From the human T2T-CHM13v2.0 reference genome, Homo sapiens, in the NCBI RefSeq assembly GCF_009914755.1, contig NC_060942.1: a stretch of DNA of 64,000 nucleotides; one strand, given 5' to 3'. A program made the translations under genes and the position numbers. The notes under the pieces are model-generated. The model was not told where the DNA came from. It searched no databases and saw only the letters and a program-made list of their open reading frames with translations. Shown piece by piece: positions 35,076 through 53,372 of this stretch (its first letter is position 1; each line of letters starts with the position of its first letter).

Positions 35076-35991
35076 CTAGTTAAAAAGAATTTTCCCTTTG
35101 GGATGGGGACTGTGAGAGGAGAGCTATTGATTTTCATTATAAATCCTTCTGTACTATTTAATTTTTTTTTAACCTAGGGCATATATGCTTATAATGAACC
35201 ATTGAAAAATTATGCTTTCAGAGGGGCTATACACAAGGTGGGACAGAGTCCTCCCGCTCTGAGAGTCTCTTTGTGAAGGTCTGCTTTGTCCAGGAGGGGG
35301 TCACCAGAATGTTTGCAGAGCCTCCGCCAGCCCTGTCTCATGAGGCAGCTTTACAAATGGTCGGATGGGACAGGGTCTCTGACAAAAGGCCCTCTCCTCA
35401 TTGGCATAATCCTTTAGACAGCTGTACCGGGTGAATGGGAACCGCTCAGAGCAGTCTGTTGGCAGGCTTGCTGCTGTCACCTCTTGTAGAATTTCCTCTC
35501 GACCACCCTGCTCTCTCGTTCAGATGTCCAACACACAGCCTTAATGGGTAATGGATGTTTTCACCTGGAGAATCCTCCTCATTAGCCTCTCAGTTCTGAC
35601 CAGGAGGCTGAATGTTCACAACATGGAAAGTCATAATATTTCAACAATCATTGGCCCCAAAGCACTTGTTCAAACAGTAATAGTAGTTAGTATGTTGTAA
35701 GAAGATCAGTTAAACCATGTCTATGTCTTTACATTTAGCTGGTATGTTTCCTCCTACCATACTGTCCTGTTTGTGATTTACTCTGTACCCAAAAGCTGAT
35801 GTCAGACTCTCTGCTTTCAACACCAAGTAATTATGGGTGGAAATGGGGGAGGTTGAAGTGGTTTGGGAGTGGAGTGACATGTAAGGTAATAGCTTTCAGA
35901 TCATTTCCGGTGGCGCTTTGGTGTGCTACAAAGATACTTTCATTGAAATGTCCCAGGGATTGGTCCGGACCCTGGATCTTACCTCACTTGA

Positions 35992-36198
<207 letters not shown>

Positions 36199-36320
36199 TA
36201 GTAGAGATGGGGTTTTGCCATGTTGGCCAGTCTGGTCTGGAACTCCTGACCTCAAGTGATCTGCCCACCTCGGCCTCCCAAATTGCTGGGATTACAGGTG
36301 TGAGCCTCCGTGCCTGGCCA

Positions 36321-36716
36321 GCCCACTTAATCTTAAATGCAGTCTTTCACTTCATACAACACACAGGAGATAGGATGCAGCAAGTTAGAAAAATTACTCA
36401 TACCACCTCCCAGATGTGCAAAGAATTTAGAGTGCATTTTCCCTATGCTTGCTCATTTAGAAGCACATCTGCTCCTCTTCACCTCCCAGGTAGCAGGGGA
36501 AAGGCTAGATTTAATCTTGTTACAATATTTCCATTTCTTCTCATTGATACAGGCTTGTTTCAGTGTAAACATTTGGTCCATTTGAAGTTCAACTTCCCAC
36601 TAGTGCTAATGAAAATCTTTACCTGGTTGAGTAAATGTTTTCAGGTAAAATACTCTATCTCTCAAATTTAGTCTCCTCTTCCTCTTCCTTGACCTGGTAG
36701 AAAGGGCAGGACTTAC
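36321..36716 (-). repeat. Left arm of an inverted duplication (396 bp)
   Basis: Reverse complement of 37632-38036, with about 7 substitutions and one 9-bp indel. ORFs 36207..36671(+) and 37677..38081(-) share a nearly identical translation. Confidence 0.97.
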
Positions 36717-37289
36717 TATATCCTTGTGATGCCTGTAGGATAAAAGGGTTCCTGAGTGGTATGTTGTCTCAGGCCTCCTCTGGTCTCAGAGGCAATGCCC
36801 CATGCCTGCCTGATTACTGTTTGCTCTGCTGCTGTTGGGGGGTGAAATTTGCTGCTGGGATCATTCGTGGCTTGGTCAGTGCCCAGTGGGCTGTCTTCAG
36901 TAAAGTCACTCCCTCTGAGCCTATGCCACAACCCCCACCAAAACTCTCCCCCGTTGGAGCCACACAAGCTCCTGCTGTCAAGCCCTCTCGCTCTTGCCCT
37001 CTGGGGACCCAAAAGGCCCCTGGTCCTCAAGTCAGCCACCTCTGTGTCTTCCTCCATCCAAAAGACCTGCAGGAGCTTCTGAGCCTGGTGACACTTGCTG
37101 GGGACCAAGACCATCCTACTCCGCCCCAGCCACGCTGCATGACCTCATCTCAGCCCAAAAACAGACATTGGGAACATCTGACCATCCATCCCGTTCCCCC
37201 GCTCTTTTTGGCTACCTGCAGTGACCCCAGCAGCAGGGGCGGGAGTTGCCTGCCCTCTTCCAGCCTGGAAGAGCATCTGTCCTACGCTC

Positions 37290-37631
37290 CTCCTTCCGGG
37301 AGTGACTCCCGCCCGCATCTCGGGGTGGGAAGGGTTCAGGAAACACAGACCAGCTTATCTTAAGGAAGCCTGGTCGGGAATCTTTCAAAAACACATCTGT
37401 TACAAGGGGGAAAGACACCTCCAGGACAACAGTGATTTGCCTCAGCGGGGCAAAGGCCAGGCCTGACGGAAGAGCCCAGCCTTCGCCGAGGGCCGCAGGG
37501 AGCCAGAGACTCGAGCCTGCGGTTCCAGCCCCGCCGCGGTTCCGGCCCCGCCGCGATCCCGAGGCCTGCGCATGCTCGGTGCTGCGCGGGGCTCCCTCCT
37601 TACCGCAGGAGCTCCTCATCGAGAAACCCAG
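37290..37631 (+). promoter_or_regulatory. TGIF1: Small CpG-rich promoter and non-coding first exon ending at a strong 5' splice site; probably the distal TGIF1 promoter
   Basis: The only CpG-dense non-Alu stretch in the window. It has a GC box (CCCGCCC ~37308), an ETS-like TTCCGG (~37540), an NRF1-like TGCGCATGCTCG (37567-37578) and a consensus donor CAG|GTAAGT at 37631/37632. The gene assignment rests on recalled locus order, not on coding sequence in this window. Confidence 0.65.
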
Positions 37632-38036
37632 GTAAGTCCTGCCCCTTCTACCAGGTCAAGGAAGAGGAAGAGGAGACTAAATTTGAGAGATAGAGTATTT
37701 TACCTGAAAACATTTACTCAACCAGGTAAAGATTTTCATTATTTTCATTAGCACTAGTGGGAAGCTGAACTTCAAATGGACCACATGTTTACACTGAAAC
37801 AAGCCTGTATCAATGAGAAGAAATGGAAATATTGTAACAAGATTAAATCTAGCCTTTCCCCTGCTACCTGGGAGGTGAAGAGGAGCAGGTGCGCTTCTAA
37901 ACGAGCACGCATAGGGAAAATGCACTCTAAATTCTTTGCACATCTGGGAGGTGGTATGAGTAATTTTTCTAACTTGCTGCATCCTATCTCCTGTGTGTTG
38001 TATGAAGTGAAAGACTGCATTTAAGATTAAGTGGGC
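37632..38036 (+). repeat. Right arm of the inverted duplication (405 bp); the first 405 nt of the putative intron
   Basis: Begins GTAAGTCCTGCCCCTTCTACCAGG and ends TTAAGATTAAGTGGGC. It contains an extra tandem ATTTTCATT at ~37732-37749. Confidence 0.97.
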
Positions 38037-40420
38037 CCCCAGGACCTGGCACAGGCTGTGGTTCCTTATATCGAGTGGCATGACTGCATTCCGGCCTTTG
38101 CCGTTGACTCATTCTTTGCCCTTGTCAAGTTTCCTAGCCTGAGTCGGTTTTTCCCCTTCTCGTTAGAGCTGATGATAAAACAGACTTACCTAGCCAGGGC
38201 AACACAGGGAGACCCTGTCTCTACAAAAAATAAGAAAATAAAATATTAGCCGAGTGTGGCGTCACACGCCTGTAGTCCTATCTACTTGGGAAGCTGAGAC
38301 AGGAGGATCTCTTGAGCTCAGGAGTTCAAGACTGCAGTGAGCTGTGATGGCGTCACTGCACTCCAGCCTGGGCGACAAAACGAGGCTCTGTCCCCAAACA
38401 CCAAAAACCTCACAAGGCTCTTCCAGGTATGAGATAATATATTGAATGTCCCTTGGTGAATTCAGAAATGCTGGGGATAAAATATATGTAAATCTCAAAT
38501 ACATCCGGATTATTAATAGTGTAATGTCTACAAAGAAATGCTCATTGTCTCGCTAGCATTCTTTTATTTAATAGAGTAAAAAAGAATGAGGATTTTTAAA
38601 AAATTAAATTCACGGAACTGTTTTTATGTTAAAGGATGGGAACATGGCTTATGAATATTTTTATTCTTCTTGGCCCTGCCCTTGTACAATAAAGTTTGCT
38701 AACTACCATTATCTCATTTGCCACTCATTAATCCAGAGAGATTTATTTAGAATCATTAAAGTTTCTCACCCCAAAATCAGGTTGAGATTTGATTCGAATT
38801 TTATTAAACCTGACATCTTTATAATATTGAAACTTTCAGGAAAATGATAGTTTCCTTTGCTTATTCGAGTTGTTATTTTTCTCTGAGTAGATTTTGGAGT
38901 TCTCTTCATAGAGTCTAGTATTCTTTATAAAGATTATTCTTGAGAATTTTATAAGGTTTTTTTTTGGCCTGGACGGTGGCCAACGCCTGTAATCCTAGCA
39001 CTTTGGGATGCCAAGGCGGGAGGATCACTTGAACTCGGGAGTTCAAGACCAGCGTGGGCAACACAGGGAGACCTCGTCTCTATAATTTTTTCAATTAAAA
39101 CAAATTTTTTTTCTGATTACAAATGAGACTTTTCTCTCCTTCATGGTTTTAACTGTTTATAGAAGATATATCGTCAAGGGAATTATTTTTACAAATTCAT
39201 TCTATGGCTGCCGTAATAAAAATAACAAGAGTGATACAAAAAGTACAGTTGTATCTTAAAGTATTGAGCAGTTGCCAAATGGCAGGCACTATGTCGTGGG
39301 TTTTAAATGTATTTTCTCAGCAAATCTTCACAATAATCCTATAAATTAATTATAGTTATTATCCTAATGTGTAGATGAAAAAACAAGCCCAGTGAGATGA
39401 CGTAATTTGCCTAAGGTCACAGAGTTCATTACTAAGCACTAATTAATTCTCTTAGGTTTTCTAGATACACAATCGTATCATTTATACAAAAGGACAGTTT
39501 TGTCTCCTCTTCCCAAGGCTGTGTGTCCAATTTTTGTTCTACACTTTACTGAACTGGTCATAATTATATTACAATGTTAAGTAATTATTCTCACTTAAAT
39601 ACTTCTAAACCCTTTTCCATTCAGTGGATATGAGTATATGATGCTGCAGTCAATGGAAATAATGATCACAATAATCCCTAACACTTACTGTGAACCCAGG
39701 CAGTCTGAGTCTAGAATTGATATTCTCATTTACACAACTAATTCAAGAGCTACTGCACCTTATTATAGCATGTTCCAGGCCACTCTAGCATGATCCACAT
39801 GTTTCAAACCTTCTCCACCACCTCCCTTCAGTTTTCTGGCTTTGTAGCCAGAGTTCATCTCTAAGTCTAGCCCCAGTTGGGTTGGTGATCCTGTTTACCG
39901 TGAATCTAATCTTGTACTTTCTTATGACATACTTCTAGTAACGGTCCCTTGGCTCTACCCAGTGAACTTAAAGAGGTGACCCATCTGTGTCCTCTCTAGA
40001 CCTCAGAACCCCATCCTATTTAAGTCCAGTTTCCTTTTACCAACAGATGAAGTCTCTCTCAACATTCCTTTCAAATATCTTTGAAAACAGAAAATAAGGA
40101 ATTTCAAGAATTTTTTTTCATCAAAACCCCATAATATTCTATGCCAGCATGGTGGTGCACAGCTGTAGTCCAAGCTACTCTGAGGCTGAGATCAGAGGAT
40201 CACTTGAACCAGGAGTTCAAGGCCAGCCTGGGAAAAGTAAAGAGACCTCTCCTCCCCATGTCTCTAAAAAATAAAAATATTGAAAGACCCAATGTCCAAT
40301 GTCAGAAAGATCAAGGAGAAAGTGATACTTTTCTACACTACACTTCTAAATTCTTTCTAAAGGGCAATTTGACAATGCATGTAAAAAATTTTGCATATTC
40401 CTTGACTCAGAAATCTTACT

Positions 40421-42377
<1,957 letters not shown>

Positions 42378-42486
42378 AGAAATCTCACTCGGAATTTATC
42401 ATAAGTAAATCATTATGGATAAGCAAAAATATATTTTTATAAAGATGTTTATTTAAATACTATTTATAGTGGTTAAAATTTTGTAG

Positions 42487-48680: not shown

Positions 48681-49710
48681 TATATCACATATTGTACTAT
48701 TGAAAAAATAGGCATGGCTGGGCGTGGTGGCTCAGGCCTCTAATCCCAACACTTTGGGAAGCTGTGGCAGGAGGGTCCCTTGAGCCCAGAGTTCTCAACC
48801 AGCCTGGGCAACATAGTGAGACCCCGTCTCTACAAAAAAAAGTTTTAAGGCTGAGCGCAGTGGCTCACGCTTGTAATCCCAGCACTTTGGGAGGCCAGGG
48901 CGGGCAGATCACGAGGTCAGGACATCGAGACCTTCCTGGCTAACACGGCGAAACCCCGTCTCTACTAAAAAAATACAAAAAATTAGCCGGGCTTGGTGTC
49001 GGGCGCCTGTGATCCCAGCTACTCAGGAGCTACTGAGGCAGGAGAATGTCGTGAACCCAGGAGGCGGAGCTTGCAGTGAGCAGAGATCGCGCCACTGCCC
49101 TCCAGCCTGCACAACAGAGCGAGACTCCCATCTCAAAAAAAAAAGAGTTTTAAAAATTAGCCGGGTGTGGTGGTGCACACTTGCAATCCCAGCTACTCGG
49201 GAGACTAAGGCAGGAGGATCATTGGAGCCCAGGAGGTCAAGGCTGCAGTGAGCTATGATCACACCACTGCACTCCAGCCTGGGTGACAGAGCAGTGCTCT
49301 GTCTCAAAAACAACAAAACAAAAAAAGGCACACCTGCCCTCGTTTCTTCCTCTCTTTCCAGTGGCCTAAATGTTGAGAGGTAGAGAGAATTAAAGCAGCT
49401 ATCTTAAACTAAAGAGGGCAGCCACGATGGAGTGACAATACAGAAGGGGTCTGCGTCACCAACATTGTGGCGCTTCCGCAGCCCTGGAGTGCTTATGTTC
49501 ACACTGTGACACAGAGACAAGTCAAATTCTTTCATGTTTATTTGGGTCTATGTGAGAGCAACTCAAGCTGCGACCTAATTAATGTAGGTTTATGATCAAG
49601 TACATATCTCATTGTATTGTAGCTATTTCTCTAATTATGATTATTTTATTATAAGTAATCATCAGTAATAATATCAGCAAAGTAAGTTTTTTTTGTTGTT
49701 TTTTTTTAAT

Positions 49711-49800
49711 GTCAGATGGGTAATGTGCCAAGATTTGAGGGAGGCATATCTCACACGAGAGTGTGAAAACACAATCATCATGTTATTAACTACAAAGGAT
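49711..49800 (-). pseudogene. U13 snoRNA (SNORD13) retropseudogene with A-tail
   Basis: The reverse complement ATCCTTTGTAGTTAATAACATGATGATTGTGTTTTCACAC...GTGTGAGATATGCC...GGCACATTACCCATCTGAC matches U13 with boxes C and D. It has an internal deletion and a T-run at 49687-49707. Confidence 0.88.
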
Positions 49801-51779: not shown

Positions 51780-53039
51780 TAGCTGATTTTTGTGTTTTGT
51801 ATAGAGACAGGGTTTCACTGTGTTGTCTAGGCTGGTCTCAAACTCCTGACCTCCAGCGATCCGCCTGCCTCTGCCTCCCAAAGTGCTGGCATTACAGGCA
51901 TGAGTCACTGCCCCTGGCCCAGCTAGGGTCCACTTATTCAGTCAACCCATAGACTGATAATGGAGAATGTTCTCAGAAAAGACTGGTGTTAGCTGTACAG
52001 ATAACCTATGGGCCTAATATATGTCTGTCTTCCATATTTGTATTTTGTTTGCTAATACTGTGGAGAAAGAAGCAGGAATTCCCATTCATTGCTAGTGGAA
52101 ATGCAAATTGGTACAACCCTTGTGAAGTAGAATTTGGCAATATCTAACAAAGCCACACGTTTATTTTTTGACATAAGAATCACACTTTTAGGAAGTTGTT
52201 CTGAGGATATAGCTTCAATAATATGAAAATACATGTGAACAAGATTGTTCTTTGCAGCACTATTTAGAATTGCAGTCCAAATGCCAAACATGAGAAAGTA
52301 ATTAAACCATGGTACAGCCAAGCAGTGGGGTACTATGCAGCGGTAAAAAATTAATAAGGATGATCTCTTTTTTTTTTTTTTTTTTTTTTTGGAGACGGAG
52401 TTTCACTCTTGTAGCCTAGGCTGGAGTGCAATGGCATGATCTCGGCTCACTGCAACCTCCGCCTCCCGGGTTCAACCTCCACCTCCCGGGTTCAAGCGAT
52501 TCTCCTGCCTCAGCCTCCCAAATAGCTGGGATTACAGGCTTGCGCCACCATGCCCGGCTAATTTTTGTATTTTTAGTACAGACGGGGTTTCACCATGTTG
52601 GCCAGGCTAGCCTCGAACTCCTGACCTCAGGCAATCCACCCGCCTCGGCCTCTCAAAGTGCTGGGATTACAGGCGTGAGCCACCGCGCCCAGCCAATGAT
52701 CTCTATAAACTGATACGGAGTGATTTCCAGAATACATTCTCCCTTTTTTTTTTTTTCTTTGAGATGAAGCCTCACTCTGTTGCCCAGGCTAGAGTGCAGA
52801 GGCACAATTTCGGGACACTGCAACCTCCACCCCACTAGGTTCAAGTGATTCTCTTCCTCAGCCTCCCGAGTAGCTGGGACTACAGGTGTGCGCCACCACA
52901 CGTGGCTAATTTTTGTATTTTTAGTAGAGACGGGGTTTCCCAGGTTGGCTAGGCTGGTCTCCAACTCTTGATCTCAAGTGATCCGCCTGCCTCAGCCTCC
53001 CAGAGTGCTAGGATTACAGGCGTGAGCCACTGTGCCTGA

Positions 53040-53372
<333 letters not shown>

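What the first reader, a model, noticed from the sequence alone, without database searches (positions are those of the whole stretch)
37625..37660. Inner breakpoint of the duplication coincides to the base with the splice-donor GT
Seen: homology between the arms stops exactly at intron position +1. The right copy reads CCCAG|GTAAGTCCTGCCC; the left copy on the minus strand reads GATATA|GTAAGTCCTGCCC. No exonic base was copied. Inference: this may be chance, but it is what an RNA-templated event using an excised intron or splicing intermediate would leave (cDNA of the intron 5' end inserted ~1 kb upstream in reverse). It could also reflect a break or template switch at the U1-bound donor. No poly(A) or clear TSD is visible; the outer end abuts the 5' end of an Alu at 36319.
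Basis: partly seen in the sequence, partly recalled or inferred. Interest (0 to 1): 0.7.

Follow-up and report, generated by a model that had tools for sequence, protein, structure and literature searches.

The report
Inverted copy ending at ancient donor
A 400-base stretch upstream of the human TGIF1 gene is present twice, back to back, and the match ends exactly at a splice site that a processed copy on chromosome 12 shows to be old; it is likely an ordinary local DNA-copying accident, though an RNA-templated origin is not excluded.

Summary
The arms are 36321-36716 (-) and 37632-38036 (+), with 7 substitutions and one 9-nt indel, and the genome search found only these two copies. Homology stops at intron +1 of RefSeq exon 37386-37631.

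The donor is real and old. A processed copy on chr12 joins this exon at exactly 37631 to a micro-exon at 39375 and then to BOD1P1. It is about 15% diverged (non-CpG, 3' UTR) against 1-2% between the arms. So the exon once led a BOD1P1 transcript.

RNA templating is not shown. There is no poly(A) or TSD around the left arm, the copy is local, and size and distance fit the known class of proximal inverted duplications. The outer junction has imperfect microhomology with the Alu start.

Best reading: DNA template switch, with the +1 end a coincidence (0.55). Rivals: right arm is the copy (0.17); reverse-transcription run-off at the intron 5' end (0.13); old donor-creating insertion (0.06). Ape outgroups would decide; none were reachable.

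The parts
36321..36716 (-). Left arm, 396 nt; likely the derived inverted copy
   Evidence: polarity inferred
37632..38036 (+). Right arm, 405 nt; start of the intron behind exon 37386-37631; likely the native copy
   Evidence: RefSeq table of the hub
36717..37631 (.). 915-nt spacer holding the CpG-rich promoter and first exon
   Evidence: CpG obs/exp 0.78 at 37400-37599
37386..37631 (+). Far-upstream first exon of TGIF1 (RefSeq); also the first exon of an old BOD1P1 transcript
   Evidence: chr12 copy L004 1501-1743 aligns to 37387-37631, 74%, 42 mismatches in 235 columns
37629..37637 (+). Splice donor CAG|GTAAGT; 9 of 11 match to the U1-pairing consensus (consensus recalled); the only exact such 9-mer in the window
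   Evidence: used in the chr12 copy
37613..37725 (-). Decayed MIR-like trace (profile positions 92-198) that carries the donor and runs weakly into the exon
   Evidence: 19.7 bits, p 0.0008 vs shuffled null; arm side 0 of 200 shuffles; nhmmer did not report it
37627..37632 (+). CCCAG(G), first copy of the short direct repeat flanking the right arm
38038..38043 (+). CCCAG(G), second copy; also the part resembling the Alu 5' end
36005..36319 (-). Full-length Alu, 5.7% non-CpG from the window's Alu consensus, without a clean TSD
36320..36328 (+). 9-mer matching the Alu tail-side flank (36000-36008) at 7 of 9: native TSD, or the imperfect microhomology that set the outer junction
   Evidence: (background 0.0022)
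37889..37908 (+). Cluster of 4 of the 7 arm differences, with all 3 CpGs of the right arm
   Evidence: p 0.011
37732..37749 (+). 9-nt tandem duplication present only in the right arm
39375..39399 (+). Unannotated micro-exon in an antisense MIR (39262-39425), preceded by AG; second exon of the old BOD1P1 transcript; its 3' end not exactly resolved
40419..42454 (+). BOD1P1 retrocopy and 3' extension shared with the chr12 copy, which lacks the Alus at 41620-41890 and 42026-42304

Best explanation
The two arms are a 396-nt local inverted duplication whose inner end lies at the first base of an intron that a chr12 processed copy shows was already spliced long before the arms diverged; the left arm is likely the copy, likely made by a DNA template switch, and the exact +1 end is likely a coincidence. 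Steps. (1) Shown: exon 37386-37631 was spliced at this donor to a micro-exon and BOD1P1. (2) Weakly shown: the donor descends from an antisense MIR that spans the exon-intron border. (3) Inferred: a broken or stalled end at the Alu 5' end annealed to the opposite strand 1.7 kb downstream through imperfect microhomology, copied about 396 nt back towards the promoter, and rejoined at 36717. This replaced native sequence, including the Alu's own 5' TSD. (4) Inferred and untested: the stop at +1 is chance, perhaps raised by breaks at promoter-proximal splice sites or by microhomology in sequence that the event removed. (5) Inferred: age around the great-ape splits, if there was no gene conversion.
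For: Size 396 nt and distance 915 nt fit the class of duplicated stretches under 1 kb within 5 kb (PMC4617611 passages). No TSD or poly(A) at the left arm. Outer junction: Alu end plus inferred TSD vs template, 11 identities in 19 columns; 26 of 7166 local sites score as well. MIR continuity at the inner junction, anchored pairwise: right flank 61-88 of 1318 background and 0-8 of 300 own shuffles, left flank 242-595 of 1318 and 59-132 of 300 (repeated). Outer junction, profile forward score: right flank 22-41 of 600 background, left flanks 75-398 of 600. The Alu beside the left arm lacks the clean TSD that most of the 48 window Alus show. Sharp edges and 1.8% divergence (CI 0.7-3.6%) fit a young event. 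Breaks are reported at promoters and splice sites (PMC7463922 passage citing Dellino 2019; PMC9645720 passages), at kb scale only.
Against: It does not explain the +1 coincidence (about 4e-4 by donor density). It needs an unseen deletion at the left site. The MIR polarity tests are post hoc and weak: with the profile forward score the two inner flanks are nearly equal (right 48-166 of 600, left 51-122 of 600), a lenient global alignment fits both (96/165 vs 101/169), nhmmer reports neither, the outer pairwise gain had p 0.045-0.13, and the chr12 exon end extends the MIR poorly. Half of the outer microhomology rests on an inferred TSD; the visible half alone is not significant (675 of 7166). 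The CCCAG(G) repeat round the right arm and the 7/9 TSD-like match fit the opposite polarity. All 7 substitutions have G/C in the right arm and A/T in the left, with 3 of 3 CpGs differing; this is unexplained.
Confidence: 0.55

Rival explanations
1. The right arm is the copy. A break at the old donor was repaired by annealing through the GTAAG(T) motif to the native left sequence, copying to the Alu border and rejoining downstream, which replaced the old intron start but kept the donor.
For: The left arm's end matches the Alu tail-side flank at 7 of 9 (background 0.0022), as a native TSD would. The 9-nt tandem duplication is in the right arm. GTAAGT occurs 22 times on both strands of the window, so a nearby partner is not rare. 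It gives the +1 edge a mechanism if breaks favour donors.
Against: The MIR-like trace continues better across the right arm's junctions. A 7/9 TSD is poorer than most neighbours. It also needs an unseen deletion.
Confidence: 0.17
2. First reader's model, sharpened. The broken end at the Alu primed reverse transcription on nascent or excised intron RNA through the imperfect microhomology. Synthesis ran off at the RNA's 5' end, intron +1, and the cDNA was joined bluntly at 36717.
For: It predicts the exact +1 end, and the strand is right: the left arm on + is the complement of the sense RNA, read from the Alu side. The donor is genuinely used. No microhomology is visible at the inner junction. 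RNA-templated patching of breaks without TSD or poly(A) is described for cell lines (PMC5110952 parts 1-2).
Against: In that review the inserts came from distant regions, not nearby ones. Local inverted copies are a common class described as not typically tied to retrotransposition. The copy is not a whole intron: the AG at 38041-2 has 41% pyrimidines and 74% of 2182 YAG sites do as well or better. The native left site is lost, so absence of microhomology cannot be shown.
Confidence: 0.13
3. The right arm is an old insertion with a CCCAG target duplication that created the donor before the chr12 copy arose, and gene conversion has kept the arms 98% alike since.
For: CCCAG(G) on both sides of the right arm (background 0.005/0.002), and removing the arm leaves CAG|GA, no donor. 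It would make the coincidence causal.
Against: The donor was in use at about 15% divergence, so conversion would have had to keep both edges clean: about 0.01 in a toy model that assumes the outer 15 nt cannot be converted. There is no left-over homology beyond either edge. The MIR trace runs into the exon. CAG|G is expected of any donor.
Confidence: 0.06

Closest known systems
Proximal inverted duplications ('Inverted Dup', 54% of sequenced inversions; Sudmant 2015, PMC4617611, passages read)
   Same: Copy under 1 kb, within 5 kb of its twin, inverted, no retrotransposition marks.
   Different: Those segregate in people; whether this one is fixed was not testable. One end lies at a splice donor.
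Class 2 templated sequence insertions / endonuclease-independent RNA patching (PMC5110952, parts 1-2 of 4 read)
   Same: No TSD, no poly(A), size in the reported 73-414 bp range, microhomology-like junction.
   Different: Reported templates are distant; here the template is 915 nt away. No RNA mark is shown.
Processed retrocopy of a transcribed retrogene that had gained 5' exons (general knowledge)
   Same: The chr12 copy joins exon 1, a micro-exon and BOD1P1 without introns, starts at the annotated exon start, and groups with BOD1P1 (support 94).
   Different: No poly(A) or TSD was identified for it. The same first exon is now annotated to TGIF1.
MIR exonization (Sela 2007, PMC2394776, passages read)
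   Same: An antisense MIR supplies a strong donor.
   Different: The donor is not at the major MIR site of that paper (CTA/gtaagt); it fits profile position 177 instead, and the trace is faint.

Membership tests
Proximal inverted duplication | Copy under 1 kb, inverted, within 5 kb | tested here: met
   396 nt, 915 nt apart
Proximal inverted duplication | No retrotransposition hallmarks | tested here: met
   left arm flanks share 0-1 nt, no poly(A)
Proximal inverted duplication | An allele or outgroup with one copy | not testable with these tools
   no primate genomes; supplement look-ups empty
Microhomology-mediated template switch | Microhomology at the junctions | tested here: inconclusive
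   outer: 11 of 19 with inferred TSD, 26 of 7166 sites as good, visible part not significant; inner: native sequence unknown
L1-mediated insertion (class 1 TSIP) | TSD of 5 nt or more around the insert | tested here: not met
   left arm 0-1 nt; the right arm has 5-6 nt but is likely native
L1-mediated insertion (class 1 TSIP) | Poly(A) tail | tested here: not met
   junction sequences
RNA-templated patch (class 2 TSIP) | No TSD or poly(A), end-joining junctions | tested here: met
RNA-templated patch (class 2 TSIP) | Distant template | tested here: not met
   template 915 nt away; only two copies found
RNA-templated patch (class 2 TSIP) | A mark of RNA processing in the insert | tested here: inconclusive
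   only the +1 start; no exon junction inside
Intron transposition / intron gain | Complete GT...AG intron with a usable acceptor | tested here: not met
   copy stops 6 nt before an AG with 41% pyrimidines
Processed retrocopy (chr12 locus) | Introns removed at splice sites | tested here: met
   first junction exact, 37631 to 39375 with AG before it; second junction not resolved to the base
Processed retrocopy (chr12 locus) | Poly(A) and TSD | tested here: inconclusive
   none clear by eye
MIR-derived donor | Donor lies in register within a MIR | tested here: inconclusive
   arm side 0 of 200 shuffles, forward p 0.0008, but no nhmmer hit and the test was post hoc

The most novel reading that the evidence does not exclude
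A germline double-strand break 1 kb upstream of a promoter-proximal intron was patched with a cDNA of that gene's own spliced-out intron, primed by microhomology and ended by run-off at the intron's 5' G. This would be a fossil of cis RNA-templated repair from an excised intron, recognisable genome-wide as local inverted copies that begin at intron +1.
Probability: 0.13. Interest if true: 0.7.

Novelty: new member of a known kind. Interest (0 to 1): 0.32.

Why it matters
As a DNA template switch it is one more member of a common class and matters little. If the RNA reading held, it would give a simple genome-wide signature (inverted local copies starting at intron +1) for repair templated by a locus's own excised intron in the germline, which is testable with ape assemblies. 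The firmer by-product is historical: the far-upstream first exon of TGIF1, with the same start and donor, once led a BOD1P1 transcript, as recorded by a second-generation copy on chr12. The inverted pair also brackets this promoter, so the 915-nt spacer could in principle invert (untested).

Tried and rejected
Homology beyond the arms: none (73, 20 and 6 of 200 shuffles as good; flank vs flank 181 of 1000). Paralogs spanning a junction: none for 38037-38190, 36717-37100, 35500-36005; only Alu hits among the 40 of 3886 candidates scored for 38410-39380. A recent insertion of the right arm that created the donor, my first idea: rejected by the chr12 copy. An L2 end across a junction: a 15-copy profile gave no hit at E up to 10. 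nhmmer on arm-plus-flank constructs reported nothing usable, so I wrote a forward scorer. The major MIR donor register of Sela 2007: not supported on either flank. A hairpin behind the mutation cluster: z -0.02. Rfam: nothing near the arms. Literature: no paper with TGIF1 + inverted duplication + chimpanzee; no occurrence of BOD1P1 or BOD1P2; empty; searches gave nothing on this locus in their listings. Supplements: no row in PMC4419785 (2 files searched, file 1 not searchable), PMC10150506 (3 files) or PMC1270012 (8 files). The hg38 and hg17 coordinates for searches came from a recalled offset, so these blanks are weak. The ape T2T tables were too large to read and two papers were not held; they may bear on presence in apes.

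Full report
Observation. The window holds one unique inverted pair near the finding: 36321-36716 (minus) and 37632-38036 (plus), 96% over 405 columns. The arms differ by 7 substitutions and a 9-nt tandem duplication in the right arm. A genome search found only these two copies. Homology stops at 37632, the first intron base behind the RefSeq exon 37386-37631, and one base from an Alu 5' end at the other side. With 3 annotated donors in 64 kb, the chance that one of four ends hits one is about 4e-4, before any correction for the many features scanned.

The donor is old. Searching the genome with 37000-37631 gave one paralog, on chr12. Locus L004 aligns in order to 37387-37631, 39373-39399, 40419-41640, 41901-42013 and 42332-42454. 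The exon ends at the same base and is joined without an intron to a micro-exon at 39375 that has AG before it and lies in an antisense MIR. The second junction is not resolved to the base. The chr12 copy lacks two Alus by alignment and a third by eye; these Alus are 5.3-5.8% from the window's Alu consensus. The 3' UTRs differ by 0.148 (K2P, non-CpG). In a six-sequence tree the chr12 copy pairs with BOD1P1 (support 94, unrooted). The arms differ by 1.8% (CI 0.7-3.6%), or 1.0% without CpG sites. So the donor was spliced long before the arms diverged, and this exon once led a BOD1P1 transcript. Turning these distances into years rests on recalled rates: roughly tens of millions of years for the chr12 copy and the great-ape range for the arms.

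Which arm is the copy? For the right arm as copy: CCCAG(G) on both sides (background 0.005 for 5 nt, 0.002 for 6 nt) and a 7/9 match between the left arm's end and the Alu tail-side flank (0.0022). Both have another reading. CAG|G is expected of a donor, and the Alu end plus its inferred TSD resembles the template around the right arm's outer end (11 of 19; 26 of 7166 sites as good; the visible half alone 675 of 7166). For the left arm as copy: a MIR profile from 93 genomic hits fits the first 80-90 nt of the arm in antisense, with the donor at profile position 177 (0 of 200 shuffles; 19.7 bits with the exon, p 0.0008). Anchored extension into the exon scores better than into the spacer (61-88 vs 242-595 of 1318 background windows; 0-8 vs 59-132 of 300 shuffles). 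At the outer end the right flank extends a second faint MIR trace (22-41 of 600) and the left flanks do not (75-398 of 600). Against this, the forward score rates the two inner flanks nearly alike, a lenient alignment fits both, and nhmmer reports neither. All these tests were devised after seeing the sequence. I put the left arm as copy at about 0.7.

Mechanism. The left arm has no TSD and no poly(A), so L1 insertion is out. Sudmant 2015 (PMC4617611, passages) found 54% of sequenced inversions to be inverted duplications, nearly all under 1 kb and within 5 kb, not typically tied to retrotransposition. This fits. I infer a template switch from the Alu end onto the opposite strand, about 396 nt of copying, and rejoining at 36717 with loss of native sequence. 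The +1 end is then chance. Breaks are reported at promoters and splice sites (PMC7463922 passage citing Dellino 2019, which I did not read; PMC9645720 passages), but not to the base. If the left flank is also a MIR remnant in register, shared blocks could have set the end; the evidence for that is marginal.

Priming from the Alu side on sense RNA would copy towards the intron's 5' end and run off at +1. RNA patching of breaks is described, but with distant templates (PMC5110952 parts 1-2 of 4). PMC13174262 (passages) describes exon ends at donors in L1 chimeras, a different case. The copy is not a whole intron: the AG 6 nt further on is a poor acceptor, and CAGG begins within 5 nt of 4% of random points. 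Weighing a low prior for local RNA templates against the 4e-4 coincidence gives about 0.13; this is judgement, not a computed value.

An old insertion of the right arm that created the donor, kept alike by conversion, needs clean edges after about 15% divergence (about 0.01 in a toy model). I give it 0.06.

Unexplained. All 7 substitutions have G/C in the right arm and A/T in the left. Four lie within 20 nt (p 0.011) and include all three CpGs of the right arm. CpG decay in the left arm, biased conversion in the right arm and error-prone copying remain possible.

Novelty. A new member of a known kind. My searches found nothing in print on this locus (supplements, partly with recalled coordinates). 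The ape tables could not be read, so presence in apes is open. Interest 0.32: a real and exact coincidence with a probably ordinary cause, a testable RNA alternative, and a solid side result on the history of the TGIF1 upstream exon.

Noticed in passing
L004 1501-3197 / L007 (G000:C12:48489907 onward): Second-generation processed copy of a BOD1P1 transcript. It starts at the annotated start of the TGIF1 upstream exon and by eye runs on to about window 43095. It lies just behind what looks by eye like the end of an olfactory-receptor-like sequence (not checked).
   Followed up: partly
39375-39399: Unannotated micro-exon in an antisense MIR, starting ATG with an in-frame stop after six codons; proven spliced at its 5' end by the chr12 copy.
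   Followed up: partly
37645-37908 vs 36703-36449: All 7 arm substitutions are G/C right and A/T left; 6 of 7 are C on the right arm's plus strand; 4 cluster in 20 nt.
   Followed up: partly
36855-36922 (+), 38088-38191 and 38407-38453 (+): Further faint MIR traces; the downstream one is split by the Alu at about 38192-38407.
   Followed up: partly
38231-38426: The annotated exon starts inside an Alu and is not preceded by AG, so it is probably a transcript start rather than an internal exon.
   Followed up: no
36717-37631: The promoter and first exon sit between 98%-identical inverted arms, a possible substrate for inversion; the left arm would then offer GTAAGT behind the flipped exon.
   Followed up: no
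37597-37608 (minus strand): A donor-like GCG|GTAAGG on the minus strand inside the CpG-rich exon; it might serve an antisense transcript.
   Followed up: no
49710-49800 (-): LOC124904374 is a snoU13 match in Rfam (71.2 bits).
   Followed up: yes
L012, L013, L015 (G000:C18:5.29 Mb), L010, L014: Other BOD1 copies; none carries the upstream exon or micro-exon in the flank held.
   Followed up: partly
52768-53350: Two adjacent Alus share one TSD-like 14-mer, suggesting one inserted at or into the other's site.
   Followed up: no
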